From positions 1 to 22,016 of the IMG/VR virus record IMGVR_UViG_2548876856_000003: DNA of 22,016 nucleotides; one strand, written 5' to 3'. The DNA comes from a virus. Lineage: Duplodnaviria > Heunggongvirae > Uroviricota > Caudoviricetes. A program made the translations under genes and the position numbers. Positions 7,930-22,001 of this stretch are shown in pieces; positions within the stretch are counted from its first letter, which is position 1, and every line of letters begins with the position of its first letter. The notes under the pieces are model-generated. The model made no database searches and was not told the origin of the DNA. It saw nothing but the letters and a program-made list of their open reading frames with translations.

Positions 7930-8633
7930 TTGCCGGTGGTGAGCTGAATAAAAAGCAGCTTGCAGAGTTGCGTAAATCACTGGCCAGCATGGAGCTGCCG
8001 CCCAAAAAGCGCCAGCGCCTTATCTGGAGGCTGGCCAAATACGGCGTGATTGCCGCCGTAAAACGGCACGTTCGCAATCAGGAAGCGCCGGATGGTCAGA
8101 AGTGGCCGGGGCGTAAAACGAAGCGCAAAGGAAAGATGCTGCGGAACCTGCCAAAACTGCTGCATATCCGTGAAATGCCAGAGATTCAGGCGGTGCGGAT
8201 TTATTTGCAGGGCGGTGGCTACCGGAACGGGGAAACGCCGGTACCGGCCGGGACAGTCGGATATGCGCAACAAAACGGGATGCGTGTCAGTGTCAGCCGT
8301 CGCAGCCAGCCACGGAAGGCGGAGGCCGGAAAAATGGCCACGCCAGCCCAGGCCAAAAAACTGCGGGCGCTGGGGTACCGGGTACGTACCGGTAAACGCT
8401 GGAAAAAGCCCACGCTGGGCGAGTTAACCCAAACGATGCCATACAGCCGGGCGGGGTTACTGATTCGAAAACTCAGCGGTAAAGCGGTGAAAACCAGCTG
8501 GACAGTGGATCTTCCTGCCCGTGTCTTTCTGGGCATGAGTGACGATGAATTTGATAACGCGCTGGCGCGTCAGCTTCAGGCCATCGGCTTTGGCTGGGAT
8601 GTTAAGGCGCAGGATATTAAGGGGAAAACATGA
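7926..8633 (+). CDS. Putative virion morphogenesis / tail completion protein (gpS-like), very basic
   Basis: 235 aa, ATGA overlap with the upstream gene, rich in Arg/Lys. Contains a PDGQKWPGRK segment and a YAQQNG motif consistent with the virion morphogenesis family. Confidence 0.5.
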   Translation: MIAGGELNKKQLAELRKSLASMELPPKKRQRLIWRLAKYGVIAAVKRHVRNQEAPDGQKWPGRKTKRKGKMLRNLPKLLHIREMPEIQAVRIYLQGGGYRNGETPVPAGTVGYAQQNGMRVSVSRRSQPRKAEAGKMATPAQAKKLRALGYRVRTGKRWKKPTLGELTQTMPYSRAGLLIRKLSGKAVKTSWTVDLPARVFLGMSDDEFDNALARQLQAIGFGWDVKAQDIKGKT

Positions 8634-9757
8634 CCTGGCCAAACGTGACCGTGAACCAGGTAAACCAGCTGCTGGGTGAAACCAATGAAGTGGAGCGCAC
8701 GCTGCTGTTTATCGGTACGGGTACCAAAAATGTGGGGAAAACGCTGGCGGTGAATGCCCAGAGTGACTTTGATGCACTGCTGGGAGAGGGGGAAAGCCCG
8801 CTGAAAAACGATGTTCTGGCGGCACTGGCAAACGCCGGTCAGAACTGGTGGGGATTTATTCATGTGCTGTCCGCAGATGCTGAGGACGATGCCTGGGTGA
8901 AAGCGGTTCTGGCCGCACAGGTAGTGTGTTCGGTGGAAGGTGTGGTGCTGTCCAGTGATGTGACGGCAAAAGCCCAGGTGAATCAGGCAGTGACGTTACG
9001 ATCCACGCTGATTTCCAAATATGGGCGCTGGGTGTGGTTCATCCTGGCCGTGCAGGGAATACAGGAAGAAGAAGCCCAGGCGGATTACCTGACCCGTGTG
9101 TCTGCCATCCAGGACGGTATTGCAGAGAAGGCTGTGCAGCTGGTCCCGCGTCTGTGGGGAAATGAGCCGGGTGTGCTGGCTGGCCGTCTGTGCAGCCGTG
9201 CCGTGACTATCGCGGACAGTCCCGCCCGTGTGAAAACTGGGGCGCTGTTGAATCTGGGCAGTGATGAAATGCCGGTTGATGGTACCGGAGCGGTACTGGA
9301 GCTGGCCACGCTTCAGGCACTGGAATCGCAGCGCTTTAGTGTGCCGATGTGGTACCCGGATTATGACGGTTTTTACTGGGCTGACGGGCGAACGCTGGAT
9401 GTGGAAGGCGGCGATTACCAGTCGATTGAAACCCTGCGAGTTGCCGATAAAGCAGCGCGTCGTGTACGTCTGCTGGCTATCAGCAAAATTGCGGATCGTT
9501 CACTCAACAGCACACCGGGCAGCATTGCTGCACACCAGACGCTGTTTGCACGTCCACTGCGTGAAATGTCCACAGCGGCCAGTATCAATGGCGTGTCATT
9601 TCCGGGGGAAGTGAAGCCGCCGCAGGAGGGTGATGTGACCATTGTCTGGAAGAACAAAAAGACGGTGGATATTTATCTTGTGGTACGCACCTGGGAAGTT
9701 CCGCTGCAAATCACCATCAGTCTGTTACTGGATGCCAGTCTGGAGGGCGCTGCATGA
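8630..9757 (+). CDS. Putative tail sheath protein
   Basis: 375 aa, sits immediately before a roughly 150-aa gene in the usual sheath-then-tube order of contractile tails. ATGA-coupled on both sides. Assigned by context only. Confidence 0.5.
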   Translation: MTWPNVTVNQVNQLLGETNEVERTLLFIGTGTKNVGKTLAVNAQSDFDALLGEGESPLKNDVLAALANAGQNWWGFIHVLSADAEDDAWVKAVLAAQVVCSVEGVVLSSDVTAKAQVNQAVTLRSTLISKYGRWVWFILAVQGIQEEEAQADYLTRVSAIQDGIAEKAVQLVPRLWGNEPGVLAGRLCSRAVTIADSPARVKTGALLNLGSDEMPVDGTGAVLELATLQALESQRFSVPMWYPDYDGFYWADGRTLDVEGGDYQSIETLRVADKAARRVRLLAISKIADRSLNSTPGSIAAHQTLFARPLREMSTAASINGVSFPGEVKPPQEGDVTIVWKNKKTVDIYLVVRTWEVPLQITISLLLDASLEGAA

Positions 9758-10209
9758 GTAAACGTATTTCGGGTATGTCGTTTGATACCTATCTTGATGG
9801 CGATCTGATCCATATCGAGAAAATCACACTCGATATCACGGATAACAGCGCCGCCGCCCAGACCCGTGGTGTGCCGGATGGCCATGTCGATGGTGATGTA
9901 GCCGCAGAGGGAGAAATTGAAGTCAGCTCCAAGGTGCTGGGCGTACTGACGGCCAAAGCCCGCGCCGCAGGTTCGTGGCGTGGTATTCCGCCGCTGGATT
10001 TTCTTTTCTATGCCAAAGCGGGCAGCGAAGAAATGAAAGTGGAATCGTTCGGTAACAAACTCCAGCTGAGTAATCTGCTGGATATCGATCCAAAGGGCGG
10101 CGGTGTGGCGACGCACAAAATCAAATATTTTGTGACCAGTCCCAAGTTCGTGAACATCAACGGTGTGCCGTATCTGGAAACGGAAGCCACGGAAAACCTG
10201 ATCGGATAA
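9754..10209 (+). CDS. Putative tail tube protein
   Basis: 151 aa, directly downstream of the putative sheath gene. Size and position are typical of myovirus tube proteins. Confidence 0.5.
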   Translation: MSKRISGMSFDTYLDGDLIHIEKITLDITDNSAAAQTRGVPDGHVDGDVAAEGEIEVSSKVLGVLTAKARAAGSWRGIPPLDFLFYAKAGSEEMKVESFGNKLQLSNLLDIDPKGGGVATHKIKYFVTSPKFVNINGVPYLETEATENLIG

Positions 10210-10219
10210 GGAAGCCGGA

Positions 10220-10522
10220 ATGCAGGAACATGAAAAGAGCCTTTATTCACTGCTGATTATGGGGGCGCTCATTGCTGTTGCGAAGGTGCTGGCCAGTGAT
10301 GATCCCATTACACCGCGCCTGTTTATCAGCCGTGTGATCCTGGGCAGTTTTGTTTCAGTCATCGCTGGCGCGGTGCTGATTCAAATCCCGGAGGCCAGCC
10401 CGCTGGCAATTCAGGGACTGGGGGCAGCGCTGGGTATTGCAGGTTATCAGGCTGTTGAAATGTGGCTGCGCAGACGTGCAGCGGGAAAGAAGAACGGGAG
10501 CGTGACAAATGACCCTGAGTGA
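10220..10522 (+). CDS. Holin (three predicted transmembrane segments)
   Basis: 100 aa with three hydrophobic stretches and a charged C-terminal tail (RRRAAGKKNGSVTNDPE). Immediately upstream of the endolysin. AGGAAG RBS. Confidence 0.7.
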   Translation: MQEHEKSLYSLLIMGALIAVAKVLASDDPITPRLFISRVILGSFVSVIAGAVLIQIPEASPLAIQGLGAALGIAGYQAVEMWLRRRAAGKKNGSVTNDPE

Positions 10523-10850
10523 AAAGCAGCAGCTGTTTACCGTCATGGTGGCCAACCTGATCCACTGGGCAGAAGAACGCGGCTACCGGCTGACGTTTGG
10601 TGAAGCGTACCGCACCCCGGAACAGGCGGCGCTGAACGCGAAGAAGGGCAGCGGCATTTCGAACAGTCTGCACACCCAGCGTCTGGCCGTGGATTTTAAT
10701 CTGTTTGTGAATGGCCAGTACCAGACCCGTACAGAGGACTATCTGCCGTTGGGTGAATACTGGGAATCACTGGGCGGAAGCTGGGGCGGGCGCTTCAAAT
10801 CCAGACCGGATGGTAATCATTTCAGCCTGGAACATAACGGGGTGCGCTGA
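10509..10850 (+). CDS. Endolysin, peptidase M15 family (zinc D,D- or L-Ala-D-Glu peptidase type)
   Basis: 113 aa with the H-x6-D arrangement (SLHTQRLAVDF) and a downstream His pair (DGNHFSLEH), consistent with M15 zinc ligands. Overlaps the holin end. Confidence 0.75.
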   Translation: MTLSEKQQLFTVMVANLIHWAEERGYRLTFGEAYRTPEQAALNAKKGSGISNSLHTQRLAVDFNLFVNGQYQTRTEDYLPLGEYWESLGGSWGGRFKSRPDGNHFSLEHNGVR

Positions 10851-11230
10851 TGACTCACGCGCAATGGCTGGTTGTGGTGGCGCTGGCGTTTGTCTGGGGC
10901 TGGCTGACCGCTGACTGGCGGCGCGACAGCCTGGAGCTGGTAATCAACACGGCGGCGCAGGTGGCGGGTAATGAATCGCGAAAGGTGATGCAGGGCATTG
11001 CCAGTGATTCCGCCAGGTCGCTGGAAGATAAACTGGAGGCGCTAAGAAATGCGCAACCGCGAGAGATCCGCACGGAAGTGCTTAAGCCGGTTTTTACTAA
11101 CAGTTGCCTGTCTGATGAGTTTGTCAGCATGTACAACAGCGCCGTCGCCGGTACCGAACGTGCGTTATCAGGAAAACCTGAAAACACGATGCGCCACGCA
11201 GCTGCCGCGCCTGAACGGGGCAACAGGTAA
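10850..11230 (+). CDS. i-spanin (Rz-like)
   Basis: 126 aa with an N-terminal transmembrane segment (WLVVVALAFVWGWL) and a charged periplasmic region. Directly after the endolysin and containing an embedded out-of-frame lipoprotein ORF. Confidence 0.65.
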   Translation: MTHAQWLVVVALAFVWGWLTADWRRDSLELVINTAAQVAGNESRKVMQGIASDSARSLEDKLEALRNAQPREIRTEVLKPVFTNSCLSDEFVSMYNSAVAGTERALSGKPENTMRHAAAAPERGNR

Positions 11231-11348
11231 AGATGCAGCGGAACTGCTGACTGTTTACCTTGAAATATATGGCCAGTGTGCGGCGCGTCATAATCAGTTA
11301 GTCGATGATATTAATTTAAGAGAGCGTGTTATTTATGGAACAAATTAA
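11049..11348 (+). CDS. o-spanin (Rz1-like outer-membrane lipoprotein)
   Basis: Starts inside the Rz-like gene in the +1 frame. Signal peptide followed by the lipobox LSAC, then a Pro-rich mature region. Extends past the Rz stop (overlapping rather than fully embedded). Confidence 0.6.
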   Translation: MRNRERSARKCLSRFLLTVACLMSLSACTTAPSPVPNVRYQENLKTRCATQLPRLNGATGKDAAELLTVYLEIYGQCAARHNQLVDDINLRERVIYGTN

Positions 11349-11592
11349 ACTGAGTGTTTGTGGTGCAGATATTGTTTTTGAACCTAATCAGACTGCTTAC
11401 AATAAACTGATTAATGAAATGGCAATGGATAATAAAGTTGCACCTGCAAATAATTATCTGATGCGTATTGTTACCCCTGAAACGAAAGAAGCTCTGATTG
11501 ACGTATTAAAACGTCCGGGTGCAGCGTTGCAACTGGTCAGTAAGGTTAATGATATTTACGCGCCGGAACTGGAGATTGAAGTAAAAAACTGA
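11335..11592 (+). CDS. Tail assembly chaperone (lambda G / P2 E analogue), zero-frame product
   Basis: About 85 aa, immediately upstream of the tape measure gene. Start chosen at the ATG at 11335 with AGAGAG upstream; the ORF-track start at 11326 is a GTG. Ends in a slippery heptamer. Confidence 0.65.
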   Translation: MEQIKLSVCGADIVFEPNQTAYNKLINEMAMDNKVAPANNYLMRIVTPETKEALIDVLKRPGAALQLVSKVNDIYAPELEIEVKN

Positions 11593-11783
11593 CAAAGCGA
11601 GTCCATGATATTGAACGAAATGGACTCGAACAGTATTTAATTCTTCGCCGTCATTATTTACCACATGGTCAGGATTCTGTTGACGATATTGCCGCCGCTA
11701 TATGGCTGGATAACCGTCACTGGGAATATACGGGAATAGCCGTGGCTAATGGCGTGGCTAAAGCATTTAAAGGCACTGAATGA
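11335..11783 (+). CDS. Tail assembly chaperone, predicted -1 frameshift fusion product (lambda GT / P2 E+E' analogue)
   Basis: The -1 frame is closed by a TGA at 11577-11579, then stays open for 64 codons from the slippery site to a TGA at 11781-11783 that overlaps the tape measure ATG. There is no in-frame ATG inside the extension. Confidence 0.5.
11583..11589 (+). other. Slippery heptanucleotide A_AAA_AAC (candidate -1 programmed ribosomal frameshift site)
   Basis: An X_XXY_YYZ heptamer in the correct phase with the chaperone reading frame (codons AAA AAC, then TGA). Confidence 0.5.
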
Positions 11784-13747
11784 AACAGTTAGATTTTACA
11801 TTAAGCCTTATTGATAAATTGTCCCTCCCGTTAAAACAGGCGCAGGGCAACGTAACGGGCTTTGCTGAAAAATCAAAAGAAGCCTTTATGCAGACTGGTG
11901 GCGGTGTTCTGGCGCTGGCGGGTACAGGGATGGCCATTAAAGGTGCGCTGATGCCCGCTATTGAAATGTATGACGCGCTGAATGATGCGGCCGCAAAAGG
12001 GATCGATGATTCTGCTCTTAAGGCCGTTCAGCGTGATGCGCTGCGCTTCAGTACAACCTACGGCGCCAGTGCGGTGGAGTTTGTCCAGTCCACGGAAAGT
12101 ATAAACGCCTCCATTGCCGGGCTGACCGGGAATGAGCTGCCGAAAGTGACGAAAGTCGCCAATACCCTGGCGTTTGCGCTCAAATCCACCGCAGCGGAAA
12201 CCGCTGAGTTTATGGGGCAGATGTTCGGTAACTTTTCCGCCGATGCCAACCGGCTGGGAAAGGTTGAGTTTGCTGAACAACTGGCCGGAAAAATGGTGTA
12301 CATGCGCAAAACCTTTGGCACGGAAATGGCTGCTATCAAGGATTTGATGGAAGGGGCGCGCGGCGTGGGTACTAACTACGGCGTGGGACTGGATGAACAG
12401 CTGGCCGTGCTGGGACAGCTTCAGCGGACACTGGGCACGGAAGCCAGCAGCGCTTATGAAGGCTTCATGACCGGAGCCATTGAGGGCGGTAAAAAGCTGG
12501 GACTGTCCTTCACGGATTCCACCGGCAAAATGCTGTCCATGCCTGAAATGCTGATCAAGTTACAGGGCAAGTATGGCAAAAGTCTGGAAGGGAATCTGAA
12601 AGCCCAGGCTGAACTGGATGCGGCATTTGGTGACAGTTCTGCGGTGGTGAAACACCTTTATGGCAATGTGGCGCTGCTTCAGCGCAATATCACAGAACTG
12701 GGCGGTGCAGATGGTCTGAAGCGTACCCAGGAAATGGCGCAGAAAATGGTGAAGCCGTGGGATCGCTTTGTCGCAATCCTGAAGGCTATCCAAACCGTGA
12801 TTGGCCTGACGCTGATCCCGGTGCTCTATCCAGTTCTGAACCGCCTGGCTGATATGGGGCAGACTTTTGCCCGCTGGATGCAGCTGTTTCCCAACATTGC
12901 GCGTGTTGTCGGGTATGCGGCAATGGCCTTGCTCAGCTTTGCGGCTGTGGGTGCTGTCGCCAATATTGTTATGGGTGCCTCTAAATTCATCATGATGGGG
13001 TTGCGCGGGATCTGGGTGGCGCTGATGGCCGTCACGAAAATTTACACTGCCACTGTCTGGCTGGGAAACATTGCCGTTGTTGCCTGGAACGCCACGCTGA
13101 AATTTCTGCGCGGTACGTTGCTGGCGGTTCGTATGGCGGCAATGATGGCCGGGATAGGTATCAATCTGATGAGCTGGCCGATCCTGCTGGTGATTGGTGC
13201 CGTCGCCTTACTTGCTGCCGGTTGCTGGCTGCTGATTAAGCACTGGGACACGGTAAAGAACGCGGTCATGGATACCGCTGCATTTCAGGCATGCGCCAGT
13301 GTAGTGGAATGGCTGGCCGGGGTGTTTACTTCAGCCTGGCAGTTTATCAGCGAAGGATGGAACAGTTTTATTTCCATGCTGACCGGGTTTTCTCCTTCAC
13401 AGGCATTAAGCGGTCTGGCCACGGGTATTGTTTCGTTGTTTGATAATGTCTGGCTATCCGTTAAAAACGGTTTTCTGAAGTCGTGGAACTGGATTGTTGA
13501 GAAACTGAATAAAATCCCCGGTGTGGATATATCAATGGCCAGTACCACTTCACCACCATTAACTGGAAATACGTTGTCAACGGGTGGAGAGATAAAAGGA
13601 ATTGATAAGGGCGGGATAAATAAAACAATCAGTAGCAATTCTAAATCAGTCACTGATAACAGCAAAAAAATAGGGGAGGTTCATTTCCATACCAAAGAAG
13701 CGATGTCCCCTGGTCAGTTAATGGAATGGCAGGAGCTAAATGCGTGA
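11780..13747 (+). CDS. Tail tape measure protein
   Basis: 655 aa. Alpha-helical, Ala/Leu-rich N-terminal half, a central block of hydrophobic segments and a C-terminal Ser/Thr-rich region. Located directly after the chaperone frameshift pair. Confidence 0.85.
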   Translation: MKQLDFTLSLIDKLSLPLKQAQGNVTGFAEKSKEAFMQTGGGVLALAGTGMAIKGALMPAIEMYDALNDAAAKGIDDSALKAVQRDALRFSTTYGASAVEFVQSTESINASIAGLTGNELPKVTKVANTLAFALKSTAAETAEFMGQMFGNFSADANRLGKVEFAEQLAGKMVYMRKTFGTEMAAIKDLMEGARGVGTNYGVGLDEQLAVLGQLQRTLGTEASSAYEGFMTGAIEGGKKLGLSFTDSTGKMLSMPEMLIKLQGKYGKSLEGNLKAQAELDAAFGDSSAVVKHLYGNVALLQRNITELGGADGLKRTQEMAQKMVKPWDRFVAILKAIQTVIGLTLIPVLYPVLNRLADMGQTFARWMQLFPNIARVVGYAAMALLSFAAVGAVANIVMGASKFIMMGLRGIWVALMAVTKIYTATVWLGNIAVVAWNATLKFLRGTLLAVRMAAMMAGIGINLMSWPILLVIGAVALLAAGCWLLIKHWDTVKNAVMDTAAFQACASVVEWLAGVFTSAWQFISEGWNSFISMLTGFSPSQALSGLATGIVSLFDNVWLSVKNGFLKSWNWIVEKLNKIPGVDISMASTTSPPLTGNTLSTGGEIKGIDKGGINKTISSNSKSVTDNSKKIGEVHFHTKEAMSPGQLMEWQELNA

Positions 13748-14073: not shown

Positions 14074-15254
14074 CGGAAAAACCGCAGGTTGATTTTGAGG
14101 AAGTGGTGAAGGCCAGCGGGATGCCGGTGACGGAATCTGAAGTGCGGGATCGCTTTAATGCGATTGCGGCTGAGGAAGGAATGATCACCAACACATCCCG
14201 CATGTCACCGTTCTGGCGGTTAGTCACGGCCATTGTGACTGCGCCGGTGATGTGGCTGAAAGAGGTTCTGGTGTCCACAGTGCTGGCTAATATGTTTGTG
14301 GCCACGGCCAGCGGGAGCATGTTGCGTCTGCTGGCCTGGGCGGTGAACGTGACGGCGAAACCCGCCAGCGCTGCGCAGGGTGTGATCCGTTTCTTTAAGG
14401 AAGATGCCAAAGCTGTTGTGACGGTGAAGGCCGGGACGGTTATCCAGACTGAACGCATTAACGGCAGGGTTTACGAACTGGCGACCACAGGCGATGTGGT
14501 GATCCCTTCCGGCACGGTCAGCGCATTGCTGCCGGTGAAAGCCACCGGAACCGGGGGAGCCTATAACCTTGCGCCAGGGTATTACCGCATTTTGCCTGTG
14601 GCCGTGGATGGTATCAGCCATGTGGCCAGTGAGGAAAACTGGCTGACAGTGCCGGGTGCTGATGAAGAAAGTGATGATGAACTGCGTGAACGCTGCCGGA
14701 ACCAGTTTAACCTGGTGGGTAATTACCACACGGATGCGGTTTACCGTTCAATGATTGCCGGTGTTGCCGGGCTGAGTATTGACCGGATTTTCTTTGAGCA
14801 TGAAGCGCCGAGGGGGCCAGGTACCGCAAACGCGTATTTGTTGCTGGACAGCGGGGTAGCTTCTGCGCCGTTTGTGAATGCGGTGAATGATTACATCAAC
14901 ACGCAGGGGCATCACGGCCACGGCGATGATATGCAGTGTTACGCCATGCCGGAAACCCTTCACGATCTGGCCGTGACGGTGTACGTCAGAAATCTGACCA
15001 ACCTGACAGACGACGAACAGAACAGCCTGAAGAACGGGATTGAAAACCTGATCCGCTGTGCTTTTCGTGAGAATGCGGATTTTGACGTCAGAAAGACGTG
15101 GCCATATTCGCGCTTCTCATTTTCTCAGCTGGGACGCGAGATCCACAAAACCTTTTCACTGGCGGATTCGCTGGCTTTTTCACTGGGTGACATTACCAGT
15201 GAGCTGAATGTGCCGCGCCTGAAATCACTGGTAGTGAGTCTTGAAAATGAATGA
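14070..15254 (+). CDS. Baseplate J-like protein (gpJ / gp6-like wedge)
   Basis: 394 aa, ATGA-coupled to the upstream gene and followed by a gpI-like gene, as in the P2 W-J-I block. Confidence 0.65.
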   Translation: MTEKPQVDFEEVVKASGMPVTESEVRDRFNAIAAEEGMITNTSRMSPFWRLVTAIVTAPVMWLKEVLVSTVLANMFVATASGSMLRLLAWAVNVTAKPASAAQGVIRFFKEDAKAVVTVKAGTVIQTERINGRVYELATTGDVVIPSGTVSALLPVKATGTGGAYNLAPGYYRILPVAVDGISHVASEENWLTVPGADEESDDELRERCRNQFNLVGNYHTDAVYRSMIAGVAGLSIDRIFFEHEAPRGPGTANAYLLLDSGVASAPFVNAVNDYINTQGHHGHGDDMQCYAMPETLHDLAVTVYVRNLTNLTDDEQNSLKNGIENLIRCAFRENADFDVRKTWPYSRFSFSQLGREIHKTFSLADSLAFSLGDITSELNVPRLKSLVVSLENE

Positions 15255-15834
15255 GTTCATGAAAAAGCTGGCCGGAATGGTGCTTCCTTCCTGGATGAAC
15301 CAGGGGGAGCCGAAAAAACTGCGGAATACAGCGCGGCGATTCTGGGCGGAGGTTTACGGCTGGATAACTTGGCCGATGAATCAGTTTGATCCGCTGACCT
15401 GCACACCGGCATTGCTGAACCTGCTGGCCTATGACCGCGATATTACCCGTTTTGACGGGGAGCCATTAAACCTCTTTCGCAAGCGCGTGGCGTACGCCTT
15501 TATTAATGCGCGTGATGCCGGTTCGGTAGCGGGATTTATCAATATTTTTGAACGGCTTGGTATTGGGTATGTGGAGCTGCTGGAGCGCCAGCCAGACATT
15601 GACTGGGATGTGATTCTGGTTCGCGTCACTGACAGTCAGATCGCGGACAACACGCAGTTGCTTATCCAGATAATCCGCCAGTACGGGCGAACCTGTCGCC
15701 GCTATCAGTTTGAAGTGATCACATCTGAAAAGCTGGCCATCCGGGCTGGATGGGATCAGGGGGAATACGTGGTTTATCCGGCAACGTTAAGCGGTATGGA
15801 AACCCACAGCGCGACATTCAGCGCGGGTTTGTAA
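15247..15834 (+). CDS. Tail protein I-like (gpI family baseplate wedge)
   Basis: About 195 aa directly after the J-like gene and before the tail fibre. Start chosen at the ATG at 15247, overlapping the J stop; the ORF-track start at 15241 is a TTG. Confidence 0.6.
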
Positions 15835-15844
15835 GGAGTTTTAT

Positions 15845-17419
15845 ATGTCACAGACAGCTATCACGCTGGCATTTGAACACTGGAAAGCGCAGCAGGGTGC
15901 TACTGGCGAACCAGTGGTGCTTGATGAATTTGTGTTTGCCAGTGTGCCCGGACTGAACCCTGATGCCCCCATTGACCGAAATGAAAAACTGCCACCGGCT
16001 GCACAGATTGTTTACCGGCAGCCCGTTACCCGCACCGGTGTGGTGAATGAAAACGGAGTGGTGTACTCCGCCGTACTGGGGGCAGATGTGGGGGATTTCA
16101 GTTTTAACTGGATCGGTCTGCTGAATAAAGCCAGCGGAACGCTGGCGATGATTGTTTATGCACCGGTGCAGCAAAAGCTGAAAACAAAAGAAGGCCAGCA
16201 GGGTAACGTCCTTACCCGCTCATTCCTGATGGAATACAACGGCGCCCAGACCGAAACCGGAATTACTACACCGGCTGAGACGTGGCAGATCGATTTCACT
16301 GCGCGTATGGCCGGAATGGATGAACGCCAGCGCCTGGAAAACGTGGACATTTACGGCACAGCGGCGTTTTTCGGTGATGGCTGGCTGGTCAGCAAAACCG
16401 GTAATCAGTTTTTCTTGACTAAAGGCACCGGCTATGTGGCGGGGTTACGTGCGTCACTGGCGGCAAACCAGAATATTGCTGTTACCGCAAAGCCGGTAAA
16501 AGTCTGGCTGGATGTGTGCTGGGCGGGAGCGCTGACCAGTGTCTGGAATGTTCAGAGCAAGATTACCGTAGCGGAAAACCTGGCTGATTATGTGCAGAAC
16601 GGCGTAAAGCATTACGTGTTTGCGGTGGCCAGCATTGATGCGAATGGAAATATCAACGATTTGCGGCCAAAAGGGACGCTGAATGAGCAACAGGCAAGCA
16701 ACGATTATCTGCGTAAAGATGCCAGTCTTGCTGATGTAAAAGACAAACCAAAAGCGCGAAAAAACCTTGCGCTTGGAGAGCTGGCGACCCTCGACAGAAA
16801 TGATGTGTTGCCGGTGGGGATACCGGTACCCTGGCCAACGGATACGCCACCAACCGGATGGACATTGATGCAAGGACAGGCTTTTGATAAATCGGCTTAT
16901 CCATTGCTCGCGGGTGCGTATCCTTCCGGGATCATACCTGATATGCGTGGCTGGATAATTAAAGGGAAACCGGCCAGCGGCCGTGCAGTGCTTTCACAGG
17001 AACTGGATGGCATCAAGTCACATACTCACAGCGCAAGTGCATCAAATACGGACTTAGGCACTAAATCAAGCAGTGCCTTTGATTACGGTACTAAAACGGT
17101 CAGCACATTTGACTATGGCACTAAAACCACTAACAGCACCGGAGAGCATGCGCACGGTATAGCTGTTGGTAACACTGGTGCAGGTAATGGCGTTTCAGCG
17201 GGTTATAACTCAGGACTGGGCAATGGAAAGACGGGGAGTGCAGGAGCGCACGCCCATACGGTTGGTATTGGCGCTCATAACCACACCGTCGGAATTGGTG
17301 CTCACAGTCACACGGTGGCAATTGGTGCTCATGGGCACACCATTACTGTGAACGCTGCTGGTAACGCAGAAAACACTGTTAAAAACATTGCTTATAACTA
17401 CATTGTGAGGCTTGCCTGA
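15845..17419 (+). CDS. Tail fibre protein with C-terminal His-x-His repeats
   Basis: 524 aa, AAGGAG RBS. C-terminal region has repeated GAH-x-HTVGI units and ends [11 protein letters not shown], a C-terminus I recognise from enterobacterial phage tail fibres. Followed by a fibre assembly gene. Confidence 0.85.
17246..17350 (+). repeat. Tandem 27-bp (9-codon) imperfect repeats, 3.9 copies, encoding AH-x-HTVGIG units
   Basis: Read directly: GCGCACGCCCATACGGTTGGTATTGGC / GCTCATAACCACACCGTCGGAATTGGT / GCTCACAGTCACACGGTGGCAATTGGT / GCTCATGGGCACACCATTACTGTG, in frame with the fibre gene. Confidence 0.7.
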
Positions 17420-18006
17420 TGACTTTCAAAATGACCGACCAGGATCGGATTATCACTGTTTACAACCTGCTGGAGAGCACCCGGGAATTTATTGGCAAAG
17501 GTGATGCGTTCATTCCTGCCTATACCGGCTTACCAGCCAATTGCACCACGATAGAACCTCCGAAAGCAAAAGCCGGGTTTACTGCCGTTTTTGATGCTGA
17601 GAATCAGGAATGGATTCTCAGTGAAGACCATCGCGGTGAGGTGGTTTTTAGCACCGAAACGGGGCTTGAAGTTACGATCACGGAGCCAGGTACTTATCCG
17701 GACGGAACGACCACTATTGCCCCGGAAAATCCGTGTCAGAAATGGGACGGTGGCGCATGGGTCGATGATGAAGATGCGGCGCGTGAAGCGCAGGTTAATG
17801 AAGCGGAAGCACATAAGAAAACCCTGCTTAATCTGGCAAACGGGGCTATTGCGACATTACAGGATGCCGTTGATCTTGATATGGCAACGGACGACGAAAA
17901 ACAGAGCCTGGTTGAGTTCAAAAAATTCCGTGTGCTGTTAAGTCGTATTAACCCGGAAGATGCACCAGATATTGTCTGGCCGGAGGTACCGGGTAATGTG
18001 GCGTGA
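17419..18006 (+). CDS. Tail fibre assembly protein (Tfa / P2 gpG-like chaperone)
   Basis: 195 aa immediately after the fibre gene, start overlapping the fibre stop by 1 nt. C-terminus has the KKFRVLLSRINPEDAPDIVWPEVP pattern typical of tail fibre assembly proteins. Confidence 0.8.
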   Translation: MTFKMTDQDRIITVYNLLESTREFIGKGDAFIPAYTGLPANCTTIEPPKAKAGFTAVFDAENQEWILSEDHRGEVVFSTETGLEVTITEPGTYPDGTTTIAPENPCQKWDGGAWVDDEDAAREAQVNEAEAHKKTLLNLANGAIATLQDAVDLDMATDDEKQSLVEFKKFRVLLSRINPEDAPDIVWPEVPGNVA

Positions 18007-18721
18007 TGCTCGTCTGGCCTTCACGGATTCGCTGGCTGCGTTAAGTTGTTCCATTGTTCCTGCGCATCCGTGGATCCACGGACTGGGGCAGCAGACAGAA
18101 AATGGGGCATATCTCAGTCCGGTGAATGCTGTCAGATACCTAGCGGAAAGGCTGGCCGGATCCGCTGGTCATGCTGACGTGGTGATCATGATGGTCACTG
18201 GCCAGACGCAGGAGAATTTTATGACCCGCCTTAACGGTCTGGTTGATGTTTTCCCGGCACCGGCATTCACTCAGGTCAGGCGTCTGGCGCAATCCGCTGC
18301 GGCGCTGGCCATCGAAAAAATGCAGATTCCCGCGAAAAGCGGGGCAGGGTTGCCGGTTGCCATTCCGCTGTCTGTGCCAACCACCAGGGAGGCATTGTCC
18401 GCAGCAGCTGTCAGTCAGGCACAAAAAACGGCCAGTGCAGGATTCAGCCTGGACGGGTTAAAGCAGCAACTGGGTGAGTTTGCGCAACTGCGTGACAAAC
18501 TTATCAGTGATGTGTCCAGCGGGCTGGATGATTTACGGGGGAAAAGCGCCAGAGCCTGGGTGTTTACGGGCAACGGCGACACAGCCACCACGTTGCTGGA
18601 GCTGGTAAAAGATATTCCGCAGCCGTCAGCCGTTTATACGGCGGCGGTGATGCTGGTTGGCGATAATCTGGATGGAATAAAAGGAATGATTCATGACTTC
18701 GATCCCAACGCTGGCGCTTAA
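17996..18721 (+). CDS. Hypothetical phage protein (possible baseplate or tail component)
   Basis: 241 aa. GGAGG lies 8 nt upstream of the ATG at 17996, and the gene overlaps the Tfa stop. Same composition as, and tightly coupled to, the neighbouring tail genes. No motif recognised. Confidence 0.4.
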   Translation: MWRDARLAFTDSLAALSCSIVPAHPWIHGLGQQTENGAYLSPVNAVRYLAERLAGSAGHADVVIMMVTGQTQENFMTRLNGLVDVFPAPAFTQVRRLAQSAAALAIEKMQIPAKSGAGLPVAIPLSVPTTREALSAAAVSQAQKTASAGFSLDGLKQQLGEFAQLRDKLISDVSSGLDDLRGKSARAWVFTGNGDTATTLLELVKDIPQPSAVYTAAVMLVGDNLDGIKGMIHDFDPNAGA

Positions 18722-21491: not shown

Positions 21492-22001
21492 TTAATTCAT
21501 CAGTTTCTTTTGCTTTGCAGCAGACGTAATTACCTTTTTATTTATAGTAAATACATTTATTTCTGGCACGGATGTATAATCACCATCATCAGTGATGATA
21601 TTCGTAATGCCATGGTTTAACATAGTTTCATGAATCATGAGGTCATAACCATCTAAGGTATTTCCAGTCATTTTTGATGCACAAGCATCTGTTAATTTTT
21701 GGCATATTGTTAAGTCAACTTGCGGTGCAATCTGTTTTACTTGAGCCCACGAAACCTCAACTTCTTTCATTGCAAGTTGCCTTTCCTTTGCATATTTATG
21801 CCTGAATTCCTTAGTCCTAATATTTGATTTTATTGTTGCCTCGTGTATTTCTCTTTCAGTGGACTCAATTATATGTGCGAGTTCGGCTAAAGATAAGCCA
21901 GAGTGAAACAGTTGTGAGTTGTTAGAAATACAATCGCTAATAAAATTAACGTAGGTATTTAGATACTGTCTGTTAGACGGTATGCCTTTTGTATAAGTCA
22001 T
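21492..22001 (-). CDS. Hypothetical protein, AT-rich; weak PIN-like nuclease pattern in the C-terminal half; may extend beyond the window end
   Basis: 169-aa ORF from the track. The frame is still open for the 15 nt between the ATG and the window end, so the true start may lie outside. The segment DLMIHETMLNHGITNIITDDGDY resembles the C-terminal strand-helix-strand of PIN-domain nucleases. AT-rich, unlike the phage genes. Confidence 0.45.
   Translation of the reverse strand: MTYTKGIPSNRQYLNTYVNFISDCISNNSQLFHSGLSLAELAHIIESTEREIHEATIKSNIRTKEFRHKYAKERQLAMKEVEVSWAQVKQIAPQVDLTICQKLTDACASKMTGNTLDGYDLMIHETMLNHGITNIITDDGDYTSVPEINVFTINKKVITSAAKQKKLMN

What the first reader, a model, noticed from the sequence alone, without database searches (positions are those of the whole stretch)
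11577..11783. Apparent programmed -1 ribosomal frameshift in the tail assembly chaperone
The chaperone ORF ends with the in-phase slippery heptamer A_AAA_AAC (11583-11589) directly before its stop. The -1 frame is closed by a TGA at 11577-11579, then stays open for 64 codons until a TGA at 11781-11783 that overlaps the tape measure ATG, with no in-frame ATG in the extension. This is the conserved chaperone/frameshift-extension arrangement of tailed phages (lambda G/GT, P2 E/E'), with predicted products of about 85 aa and about 149 aa.
Basis: partly seen in the sequence, partly recalled or inferred. Interest (0 to 1): 0.5.

Follow-up and report, generated by a model that had tools for sequence, protein, structure and literature searches.

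The report
Tail chaperone −1 frameshift, HP1-type prophage
This is the well-known "two proteins from one gene" ribosome slip that tailed phages use when building their tails, found here in an HP1/ESSI-2-like prophage; it looks real and conserved, but public annotation misses it and labels the slipped-frame part as a separate protein of unknown function.

Summary
An 85-aa tail assembly chaperone gene (11335-11592, Pfam Phage_TAC_10) ends in the in-phase heptamer A_AAA_AAC (11583-11589) directly before its TGA. The -1 frame is open for 64 codons to a TGA that overlaps the tape-measure ATG (ATGA), giving a predicted 149-aa fusion.

The heptamer alone is not significant: the window holds 8 copies against about 5.5 expected. 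The comparative evidence is strong:
- About 140 related loci, plus HP1, K139, phiO18P, F108 and Pseudomonas phi3, keep A_AAA_AAN at this position.
- The heptamer codons show no synonymous variation, although such variation is common elsewhere in the gene.
- The extension evolves as coding sequence in the -1 frame and matches Pfam DUF6890.
- No conserved start codon exists, and no in-frame fusion appears among 1.84 billion representative proteins.
- The chaperone model matches all three solved tail assembly chaperones.

- An 8-9 bp hairpin lies 8 nt downstream, with compensatory A-U/G-C switches needing at least 4 events. It is specific to the Enterobacteriaceae clade.
- RefSeq's "DUF6890 family protein" calls (ATT, CTG and similar starts) are this extension annotated as a separate gene.

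Verdict: a new member of a known kind (lambda G/GT, P2 E/E+E'), of modest interest. No experiment was available.

The parts
11335..11592 (+). Short product: tail assembly chaperone ORF (85 aa, 9.5 kDa), frame 0, ending GTA AAA AAC TGA
11583..11589 (+). Slippery heptamer A_AAA_AAC, in phase with frame 0 (X_XXY_YYZ)
   Evidence: Sequence read. Invariant in 87/87 loci and in 52/53 species-level loci, the remaining one being A_AAA_AAA. Codons 83-85 show no synonymous variation in 72/72 distinct sequences.
11590..11592 (+). Frame-0 stop codon (TGA) immediately 3' of the heptamer
   Evidence: A stop directly follows the heptamer in all 140 close and medium relatives, but its identity varies: TAA 39, TGA 11, TAG 3. 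The exceptions are Pseudomonas phi3 and Pseudoalteromonas ACA2, where the stop lies 7-8 codons downstream.
11577..11579 (+). Last stop (TGA) in the -1 frame upstream. It limits any productive shift to 11580-11589.
11589..11783 (+). -1 frame extension: 64 codons (LTKRVHDIERNGLEQYLILRRHYLP...KAFKGTE) plus TGA, the C-terminal domain of the 149-aa fusion
   Evidence: Pfam DUF6890 at E 3.7e-24. Variability at codon positions 1/2/3 is 0.070/0.056/0.235, with 0 stops in this frame against 206 and 488 in the other two, over 72 sequences. The AF2 model is a two-helix hairpin with pLDDT 82.
11598..11628 (+). Predicted stimulatory RNA hairpin: CGAGUCCAU (11598-11606), a 13-nt loop, then AUGGACUCG (11620-11628). 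It begins 8 nt after the heptamer.
   Evidence: MFE -15.7 kcal/mol, z -2.4, and the stem is retained when folded in a 161-nt context. RNAalifold predicts the same 8 bp. Of all pair cells, 92.3% are paired against 10-40% when the partners are slid, and 0/500 shuffles reach the observed covariation score. Pair 23-39 is A-U in 41 sequences and G-C in 30, with 0 mismatches and at least 4 independent switches on a tree. The helix is intact in the Enterobacteriaceae-type clade only.
11780..13747 (+). Tape measure protein gene. Its ATG overlaps the extension's TGA (ATGA).
   Evidence: Pfam PhageMin_Tail at E 8.9e-23. The ATGA or TAATG overlap is conserved in relatives.
8630..10209 (+). Context: tail sheath (8630-9757, DUF2586) and tail tube (9754-10209, Phage_HP1_Orf24) upstream
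10220..11348 (+). Context: lysis cassette inserted between the tube and chaperone genes: holin, M15 endolysin, i-spanin and overlapping o-spanin

Best explanation
The window is the late-gene region of an HP1/ESSI-2-like P2-family (Peduoviridae) prophage. Gene 11335-11592 encodes an 85-aa tail assembly chaperone.

Most ribosomes terminate at TGA 11590-11592. A minority slip one base backward on A_AAA_AAC: tRNA-Lys moves from AAA to AAA and tRNA-Asn from AAC to AAA. They then read CTG ACA AAG ... in the -1 frame for 64 more codons and terminate at the TGA that overlaps the tape-measure ATG.

This gives two proteins with the same N-terminus: the chaperone (85 aa) and chaperone plus DUF6890 domain (149 aa, junction ...EIEVKN-LTKRV...). 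The slip is probably promoted by two features. One is the stop codon directly after the heptamer, which is universal in the family. The other, in the Enterobacteriaceae clade to which this window belongs, is an 8-9 bp hairpin that starts 8 nt downstream.

By analogy with lambda gpG/gpGT and P2 E/E+E', the shared chaperone domain would coat the tape measure protein. The rarer DUF6890 domain would recruit the tail tube protein, so that the tube polymerises around the tape measure, and neither product would end up in the virion.

Shown here:
- the anatomy of the site
- family membership of both halves
- the chaperone fold
- conservation of the site and of the frame relation
- the coding signature of the extension
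- absence of a conserved start codon
- covariation in the hairpin

Inferred, not shown:
- that slippage occurs, and at what rate
- that the stop and the hairpin stimulate it
- what the DUF6890 domain binds
For: 1. Anatomy is exact.
2. Pfam gives Phage_TAC_10 for frame 0 and DUF6890 for frame -1. The same frame split is seen in ACA2, HP1, phi3, K139 and PV94.
3. The gene lies between sheath/tube and the tape measure gene.
4. Heptamer plus stop is conserved in 87/87 loci and 53/53 loci, with A_AAA_AAN at the same place in distant phages down to about 33% identity.
5. Synonymous sites of GTA AAA AAC are frozen in 72/72 sequences, although GTA is the minority Val codon elsewhere and Asn and Lys codons vary freely.
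6. The extension is under purifying selection in the -1 frame only.
7. No conserved initiation codon exists. Database 'DUF6890' proteins are 26-81 aa and start at scattered positions, including ATT and CTG.
8. No in-frame fusion is found in 5.8 billion clustered or 1.84 billion representative proteins.
9. The chaperone fold matches 3fgx, 2ob9 and 3klu.
10. The hairpin has compensatory changes.
11. ACA2 is deposited with a joined frameshift CDS.
12. The G-T type frameshift is established as widely conserved (PMC5009743), and P2 E/E+E' has sizes of 91/142 aa (PMC3091744).
Against: - There is no experimental evidence (protein, ribosome profiling or genetics) for this lineage in anything I could access.
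- In E. coli, A_AAA_AAC is reported as much less shift-prone than A_AAA_AAG (PMC5009743), so efficiency may be low. That would still fit the low ratio that lambda needs.
- The hairpin is not conserved outside the Enterobacteriaceae-type clade. It lies within conserved coding sequence, so part of its conservation reflects protein constraint.
- An upstream Shine-Dalgarno-like GGAG is present in only 18/149 loci.
- No sequence homology to P2 E or E' was detectable, and the extension's fold search was uninformative. The proposed tube-binding role of DUF6890 therefore rests on analogy alone.
Confidence: 0.9

Rival explanations
1. The extension is an independent small gene, as RefSeq/PGAP annotates it ('DUF6890 family protein', 47 aa from window 11640), translated from its own start codon rather than by frameshifting.
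For: PGAP and several phage records annotate a separate CDS here. Pfam treats DUF6890 as a free-standing family.
Against: - The PGAP start is an ATT codon.
- The window has no ATG in the extension, and its only GTGs leave 13 or fewer codons.
- Candidate canonical starts are not conserved in position across 79 distinct sequences, and most lie about 140 nt in, downstream of the most conserved residues.
- Database entries start at many different positions, from profile position 2 to 36.
- The 21 residues upstream of the PGAP 'start' (LTKRVxxIExNGLEQYLI) are conserved and show a coding signature.
Confidence: 0.03
2. Termination-reinitiation: ribosomes terminate at UGA 11590-11592 and restart at the overlapping CUG (11589-11591), producing a separate 64-aa protein.
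For: The window has the overlap C-UGA/CUG-A. Some database entries are 64-aa 'MTKRV...' calls that use this codon.
Against: In 42 of 53 species-level loci the stop is TAA or TAG, so the -1 codon is CTA, which is not an initiation codon. The arrangement is conserved regardless. This mechanism would not need the heptamer to be frozen at synonymous sites.
Confidence: 0.02
3. Transcriptional slippage: RNA polymerase adds one A in the A6 run, producing a subpopulation of mRNAs in which the two ORFs are in frame. The same long protein results, but with junction VKK-L.
For: The site is a homopolymeric A run. A few relatives have A7: PV94, yong1 and the Providencia rustigianii locus.
Against: - From my own knowledge, not a tool result: A6 is shorter than the runs of about 9 or more that bacterial RNA polymerase slips on efficiently.
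- The seventh base C is fixed in 139 of 140 close relatives although AAT is synonymous. The run keeps a fixed register with frame 0, which RNA polymerase slippage would not require.
- A covarying hairpin at an 8-nt spacing and an adjacent stop codon are features of ribosomal stimulation.
Confidence: 0.04
4. Coincidence: a chance heptamer and a chance open off-frame with no functional product.
For: The heptamer is not over-represented in the window, and other in-phase heptamers exist there.
Against: The arrangement is conserved over about 150 loci and multiple bacterial orders. The extension has a coding signature and matches a Pfam family.
Confidence: 0.01

Closest known systems
Phage P2 E / E+E' (FETUD tail operon; Christie et al. 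2002, cited in PMC3091744 and PMC5009743)
   Same: - Same virus family (Peduoviridae) and the same position immediately upstream of the tape measure gene.
- A -1 shift near the 3' end of a ~90-aa chaperone ORF, with near-identical product sizes: 91/142 aa in P2 against 85/149 aa here.
- The extension's stop overlaps the tape-measure start.
- The same two-family Pfam layout, with the second family at residues ~104-140 of the fusion: Phage_TAC_7 + Phage_P2_GpE in P2 against Phage_TAC_10 + DUF6890 here.
   Different: - No detectable sequence homology in either half (hhalign probability below 1%).
- The slip site is T_TTT_TTG in P2, 6 codons before the stop, against A_AAA_AAC abutting the stop here.
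- P2 is reported to have no downstream structure (PMC3091744), whereas this clade has a covarying hairpin.
- In P2 the chaperone gene directly follows the tube gene. Here a lysis cassette intervenes.
Phage lambda gpG / gpGT (Levin et al. 1993; Xu, Hendrix & Duda 2004, 2013, 2014, as summarised in PMC5009743)
   Same: A low-level -1 frameshift makes a chaperone and a C-terminally extended chaperone from the ORF pair upstream of the tape measure gene. This provides the functional model: the shared domain binds the tape measure protein, and the extension recruits the tube protein.
   Different: Lambda is a siphovirus, its slip site is G_GGA_AAG, and its proteins are larger and unrelated in sequence. 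The function of the extension here is inferred, not tested.
Pseudoalteromonas phage ACA2 gp36/gp36a (GenBank OR438929), and HP1 orf26, K139 orf30, phi3 gp25/26
   Same: Same Pfam pair, with Phage_TAC_10 in frame 0 and DUF6890 in frame -1. ACA2 is explicitly annotated as 'tail assembly chaperone with programmed frameshift'. These are true homologues of the window's gene pair.
   Different: ACA2 and phi3 use A_AAA_AAA and A_AAA_AAG with the frame-0 stop 7-8 codons downstream. They share only 32-46% identity with the window and lack the homologous hairpin. HP1, K139 and the ESSI-2-like phages are not annotated with the frameshift.
E. coli dnaX and IS-element -1 recoding cassettes (heptamer plus 3' hairpin, with or without a 5' Shine-Dalgarno element)
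   Same: An A-rich X_XXY_YYZ heptamer followed by a stem-loop at a short (8-nt) spacing. From my own knowledge, A6C is also the heptamer of IS1.
   Different: No conserved 5' Shine-Dalgarno stimulator (18/149 loci). The last base is C, not G. The biological role is unrelated.

Membership tests
G/GT-type tail assembly chaperone programmed -1 frameshift (Xu, Hendrix & Duda 2004) | A pair of overlapping ORFs between the major tail/tube gene and the tape measure gene | tested here: met
   Tube at 9754-10209, chaperone at 11335-11592, extension to 11783, tape measure from 11780. A lysis cassette lies between the tube and chaperone genes, as in HP1.
G/GT-type tail assembly chaperone programmed -1 frameshift (Xu, Hendrix & Duda 2004) | The downstream ORF is in the -1 frame and lacks its own start signal | tested here: met
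   No ATG. The only GTGs are 13 or fewer codons from the end. No start is conserved in relatives, and the PGAP start is ATT.
G/GT-type tail assembly chaperone programmed -1 frameshift (Xu, Hendrix & Duda 2004) | An in-phase slippery sequence within the overlap, conserved among relatives | tested here: met
   A_AAA_AAC lies in the 13-nt overlap. It is present in 87/87 and 53/53 loci, and its synonymous sites are frozen.
G/GT-type tail assembly chaperone programmed -1 frameshift (Xu, Hendrix & Duda 2004) | The upstream product has the tail assembly chaperone (spiral) fold | tested here: met
G/GT-type tail assembly chaperone programmed -1 frameshift (Xu, Hendrix & Duda 2004) | Two proteins sharing an N-terminus are made in a fixed low ratio | not testable with these tools
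   Requires expression, Western blotting, mass spectrometry or ribosome profiling.
G/GT-type tail assembly chaperone programmed -1 frameshift (Xu, Hendrix & Duda 2004) | Both products are required for tail assembly and are absent from virions | not testable with these tools
   Requires genetics and virion proteomics.
Pfam Phage_TAC_10 (PF10963) | hmmscan score above the gathering threshold (25.7 bits) over the full model | tested here: met
   116.8 bits, model positions 1-82 of 82.
Pfam DUF6890 (PF21830) | hmmscan score above the gathering threshold (23.6 bits) | tested here: met
   84.6 bits, model positions 1-44 of 44, in the -1 frame translation.
P2 E/E+E' family (Phage_TAC_7 + Phage_P2_GpE) | Sequence homology to P2 E and E' | tested here: not met
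   hhalign probabilities of 0.1% and 0.3%. The window fusion hits neither Pfam family.
P2 E/E+E' family (Phage_TAC_7 + Phage_P2_GpE) | T_TTT_TTG slip site | tested here: not met
   The site here is A_AAA_AAC.
dnaX/IS-type three-part -1 cassette | A 3' stem-loop at a short (8-nt) spacing after the heptamer, supported by covariation | tested here: met
   8-nt spacer and 8-9 bp stem. The A-U/G-C switch needs at least 4 events, and slid and shuffled controls are far lower. This holds for the Enterobacteriaceae-type clade only.
dnaX/IS-type three-part -1 cassette | A 5' Shine-Dalgarno-like stimulator upstream of the heptamer | tested here: not met
   GGAG lies 8 nt upstream in the window, but in only 18/149 loci. 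The majority have GGAA.

The most novel reading that the evidence does not exclude
The HP1/ESSI-2 lineage may use a distinct recoding cassette in which the frame-0 stop codon directly abutting A_AAA_AAC is itself the main stimulator. In that reading the slip occurs while the stop occupies the A site, and the Enterobacteriaceae clade has added a covarying hairpin to tune the ratio. Pfam DUF6890 would then be the lineage's 'T domain', binding the HP1-Orf24-type tail tube. If so, all RefSeq 'DUF6890 family protein' entries are mis-called fragments of a frameshift product. The system would also offer a natural series (stop-adjacent with hairpin, stop-adjacent without hairpin, stop-distal A_AAA_AAG) for dissecting how frameshift ratios are set.
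Probability: 0.35. Interest if true: 0.4.

Novelty: new member of a known kind. Interest (0 to 1): 0.27.

Why it matters
**Annotation**
- The frameshift product is missing from RefSeq for this prophage group. In its place, PGAP propagates truncated 'DUF6890 family protein' entries with non-canonical starts.
- Pfam lists DUF6890 as of unknown function. Recognising it as the -1 extension of Phage_TAC_10 chaperones assigns a role to that family and corrects an essential tail gene in a prophage type widespread in Enterobacterales.

**Mechanism**
- The lineage offers a clean comparative series for studying how low-level frameshift ratios are tuned. The heptamer plus adjacent stop is universal, the covarying hairpin occurs in one clade, and the A_AAA_AAG variant with a distal stop occurs in Pseudomonas and Pseudoalteromonas phages.

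The underlying biology, a G/GT-type tail chaperone frameshift, has been textbook knowledge since 1993-2004.

Tried and rejected
- Heptamer frequency as evidence. Rejected: 8 observed against 5.5 expected, and other in-phase heptamers exist in the window.
- Sequence homology to P2 E and E' by profile comparison. None found.
- PDB sequence search with the fusion protein. No hits at E up to 10.
- Foldseek of the extension model against viral predicted structures. Nothing at E below 1; a two-helix hairpin is too simple to be informative.
- Rfam scan of 11400-11900. No family matched.
- Promoter and terminator scan of 11200-11900. No terminator, and no promoter in the gap, so the hairpin is not an intrinsic terminator.
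- Upstream Shine-Dalgarno stimulator. Present in the window's subclade only, 18/149 loci.
- A homologous hairpin in distant relatives. Not conserved: yong1, PV94, F108 and HP1 have other hairpins at other spacings, and K139 and YenM324 have none that is convincing.
- Literature search for a description of this frameshift in HP1, K139 or ESSI-2 phages, and for DUF6890. Nothing in the held library. Christie et al. 2002 and Xu et al. 2004 themselves could not be read, so I cannot say whether HP1 appears in their tables.
- In-frame natural fusions of the two domains. None found.
Full report
**1. The observation**

- The chaperone ORF runs from ATG 11335 to TGA 11590-11592 and encodes 85 aa.
- In frame 0 it ends GTA AAA AAC TGA, so A_AAA_AAC (11583-11589) is an in-phase X_XXY_YYZ heptamer directly before the stop.
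- The -1 frame has a TGA at 11577-11579. From CTG at 11589 it is open for 64 codons to TGA 11781-11783, which overlaps the ATG (11780) of a 655-aa ORF.
- The extension contains no ATG. The only GTG codons (11742, 11754) lie within 13 codons of its end.
- The predicted products are 85 aa (9.5 kDa) and 149 aa (16.8 kDa).

**2. Is it more than chance?**

The heptamer alone is not.
- AAAAAAC occurs 8 times in the window against 5.5 +/- 2.3 expected.
- Ten in-phase X_XXY_YYZ heptamers occur across the 21 plus-strand genes.
- A 64-codon open run in a -1 frame has a probability of about 0.01-0.02 in these genes.

The signal comes from three things together. The heptamer sits in the 13-nt window where a shift is productive, the open frame exactly fills the gap to the next gene, and the arrangement is conserved.

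**3. What the element is**

- Pfam assigns the flanking genes as follows: tail sheath (DUF2586), tail tube (Phage_HP1_Orf24), holin, M15 endolysin, Rz1-like LysC, tape measure (PhageMin_Tail), DUF2590 and Baseplate_J.
- Further out lie Ogr/Delta, portal, terminase, GpO scaffold, P2-type capsid, GpM, GpL, GpR, tail fibre and HP1_ORF34.
- The DNA is 97.7% identical to prophages in five E. coli chromosomes and 75-87% identical to ESSI-2-like phages of the Peduoviridae.
- The window is therefore the late region of an HP1/ESSI-2-type P2-family prophage.

**4. The two halves are both real protein domains**

- The short ORF matches Phage_TAC_10 over the whole model (E 5e-34). The -1 translation matches DUF6890 over the whole model (E 3.7e-24).
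- PMC9603447, citing Pell et al. 2013, identifies exactly these three as the solved phage tail assembly chaperones.
- The extension models as two long helices with pLDDT 82. Its fold search gave nothing significant.

**5. Comparative tests of the frameshift**

(a) Conservation of the site.
- In 87 loci (phage records, E. coli prophages, IMG/VR contigs; 55-100% protein identity), all have GTAAAAAAC followed by a stop and a 63-64 codon -1 extension.
- In a one-genome-per-species scan, 53 of 53 complete loci (54-86% identity; from Kluyvera and Salmonella to Xenorhabdus, Photorhabdus, Providencia and Morganella) have A_AAA_AAC (52) or A_AAA_AAA (1) directly followed by a stop.
- The stop codon itself varies in that scan (TAA 39, TGA 11, TAG 3) while the heptamer does not.

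(b) Distant relatives.
- At 32-58% identity the same two-frame match persists in 65 phage records.
- HP1, phiO18P, F108 and K139 have A_AAA_AAC plus a stop. PV94 and yong1 have A_AAA_AAA plus TAG. Pseudomonas phi3 has A_AAA_AAG with the stop 7 codons later.
- ACA2, HP1, phi3, K139 and PV94 all carry Phage_TAC_10 in frame 0 and DUF6890 in frame -1.

(c) Synonymous-site test (72 distinct DNA sequences, 75-100% nucleotide identity).
- 38 of 41 invariant-residue degenerate codon columns use two or more codons.
- Codons 83-85 are GTA AAA AAC in 72/72, although GTA is the minority Val codon at the other Val columns and every other invariant Asn or Lys column uses both codons.

(d) Coding signature of the extension.
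- Variability at -1-frame codon positions 1/2/3 is 0.070/0.056/0.235, the same pattern as in the chaperone gene (0.074/0.039/0.267).
- There are 0 stops in the -1 frame, against 206 and 488 in the other two frames over the 72 sequences.

(e) No start codon.
- Candidate ATG/GTG/TTG codons are not conserved in position, and most lie about 140 nt into the extension.
- RefSeq's 'DUF6890 family protein' begins at an ATT.
- Database members are 45-71 aa and begin at the slip-site CTG, at ATT, or elsewhere.
- Among 1.84 billion representative proteins, 68 of 69 hits are 26-81 aa orphans whose match begins anywhere from profile position 2 to 36. The 69th is a 1582-aa repeat protein matching only profile positions 14-27.

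(f) No in-frame fusion was found.
- No homologue of the fused query covers more than its first 57%.
- No DUF6890 hit carries a chaperone domain.

(g) Prior recognition.
- Pseudoalteromonas phage ACA2 is deposited with a joined CDS 'tail assembly chaperone with programmed frameshift'.

**6.

- CGAGUCCAU (11598-11606) pairs with AUGGACUCG (11620-11628) across a 13-nt loop, starting 8 nt after the heptamer. MFE is -15.7 kcal/mol with z -2.4, and the stem persists in a 161-nt fold.
- On 42 distinct 66-nt sequences, RNAalifold predicts the same 8 pairs.
- 92.3% of pair cells are standard pairs, against 10-40% when the 3' partners are slid by 1-3 columns. No shuffle out of 500 reaches the observed covariation score.
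- The pair at alignment columns 23-39 links the second base of a His/Gln/Arg codon to the synonymous third base of an Asn codon. It is A-U in 41 sequences and G-C in 30, with no mismatch. It needs at least 4 switches on a tree built without the stem columns.
- Two other pairs also show double changes.
- The helix is intact (8/8 pairs) in the Enterobacteriaceae-type clade and decays in Brenneria, Serratia, Morganella and Providencia relatives.
- More distant phages have different hairpins at other spacings, or none.
- The hairpin is therefore a probable clade-specific stimulator. It is not part of the universal core, which is the heptamer plus the adjacent stop.
- It is not a terminator and matches no Rfam family.
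- An upstream Shine-Dalgarno-like GGAG exists in the window but in only 18/149 loci.

**7. Mechanism**

The best-supported reading is as follows.
- Most ribosomes terminate at the TGA and yield the 85-aa chaperone.
- A minority slip -1 on A_AAA_AAC and continue for 64 codons, yielding the 149-aa fusion with junction ...EIEVKN-LTKRV....
- A_AAA_AAC is a recognised -1 heptamer but is less shift-prone in E. coli than A_AAA_AAG (PMC5009743). That fits the low long-to-short ratio needed in lambda, about 1:30, which is 2- to 3-fold higher in P2 (PMC5009743).
- I infer that the adjacent stop and the hairpin raise or set the rate. This is based on their conservation and on general knowledge of bacterial recoding sites, and it is not shown.
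- The functional model is taken from lambda (PMC5009743): the chaperone domain coats the tape measure protein, and the extension recruits the tube protein. For DUF6890 this is analogy only.

**8. Rivals**

- An independent DUF6890 gene is contradicted by the absence of any conserved start and by conservation of the residues upstream of the annotated starts.
- Reinitiation at the CUG that overlaps UGA is contradicted because 42/53 species-level loci have CTA there.
- Transcriptional slippage on A6 cannot be excluded computationally but is unlikely. The run is short, its register and its seventh base are fixed, and the flanking signals are of the ribosomal kind.
- Chance is excluded by the comparative data.

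**9. Comparison with known systems**

- The architecture is that of P2 E/E+E' (91/142 aa; Phage_TAC_7 + Phage_P2_GpE, with the second family at residues 104-139). Here it is 85/149 aa, Phage_TAC_10 + DUF6890 at residues 104-147.
- There is no detectable sequence homology, the slip site differs (T_TTT_TTG against A_AAA_AAC), and P2 is reported to lack a downstream structure (PMC3091744).
- The site works like P2 E/E+E' and lambda G/GT, and it is a member of the Phage_TAC_10/DUF6890 lineage (HP1, K139, ACA2 and others).

**10. Verdict**

- This is a new, unannotated member of a long-known kind.
- The useful by-products are the reinterpretation of DUF6890 and of RefSeq's 'DUF6890 family protein' calls as the orphaned -1 extension, and the covarying hairpin.
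- Interest is modest.
- Christie et al. 2002 and Xu et al. 2004 were not readable here. Whether HP1 was already listed there is unknown to me.

Noticed in passing
window 11049-11348 (+), overlapping 10850-11230 (+): The o-spanin (Rz1/LysC-like) ORF from ATG 11049 carries a signal peptide and the lipobox ...LMSLSAC. It overlaps the i-spanin gene by 182 nt in another frame. PGAP in the near-identical E. coli prophages calls only a 63-aa version starting at GTG (window 11160), which drops the lipobox.
   Followed up: partly
window 10220-11348: A complete lysis cassette (holin, M15 endolysin, i- and o-spanin) sits between the tail tube gene and the tail assembly chaperone gene. HP1 has a lysis cassette (endolysin, spanin) at the same place upstream of its chaperone gene. 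In P2 the chaperone gene directly follows the tube gene.
   Followed up: partly
window 15825-15831: A second in-phase slippery-type heptamer (G_GGT_TTG) lies 3 nt before the stop of the Tail_P2_I-like gene 15241-15834. The -1 frame is open for 41 codons but runs out of frame into the tail-fibre gene. There is no evidence of function.
   Followed up: no
window 17960-18721 (+): A 253-aa ORF with no Pfam match overlaps the end of the tail-fibre assembly gene (17419-18006) by 47 nt and precedes the HP1_ORF34-like baseplate gene. Its identity is unknown.
   Followed up: no
window 21492-22001 (-): An ORF on the opposite strand, beyond the last tail gene, has a weak PIN-domain match (E 4e-4, below the Pfam threshold). 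It may be cargo or a toxin-like gene at the edge of the late region.
   Followed up: no
L091 (Vibrio phage yong1) 949-1000; L089 (PV94) 952-982; L090 (F108) about 975-1010: Distant Phage_TAC_10 relatives have their own strong downstream hairpins at non-homologous positions. yong1 has 14 bp with a 7-nt spacer, PV94 has 9 bp with a 2-nt spacer, and F108 and HP1 have one about 20 nt away. This suggests repeated independent gain of stimulators.
   Followed up: partly
Pfam PF21830 / RefSeq 'DUF6890 family protein' entries (e.g. L001 2141-2284): The whole DUF6890 family appears to be built from gene calls on the -1 extension that use arbitrary non-canonical starts (ATT, CTG and others). Lengths range from 26 to 81 aa across databases.
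   Followed up: yes
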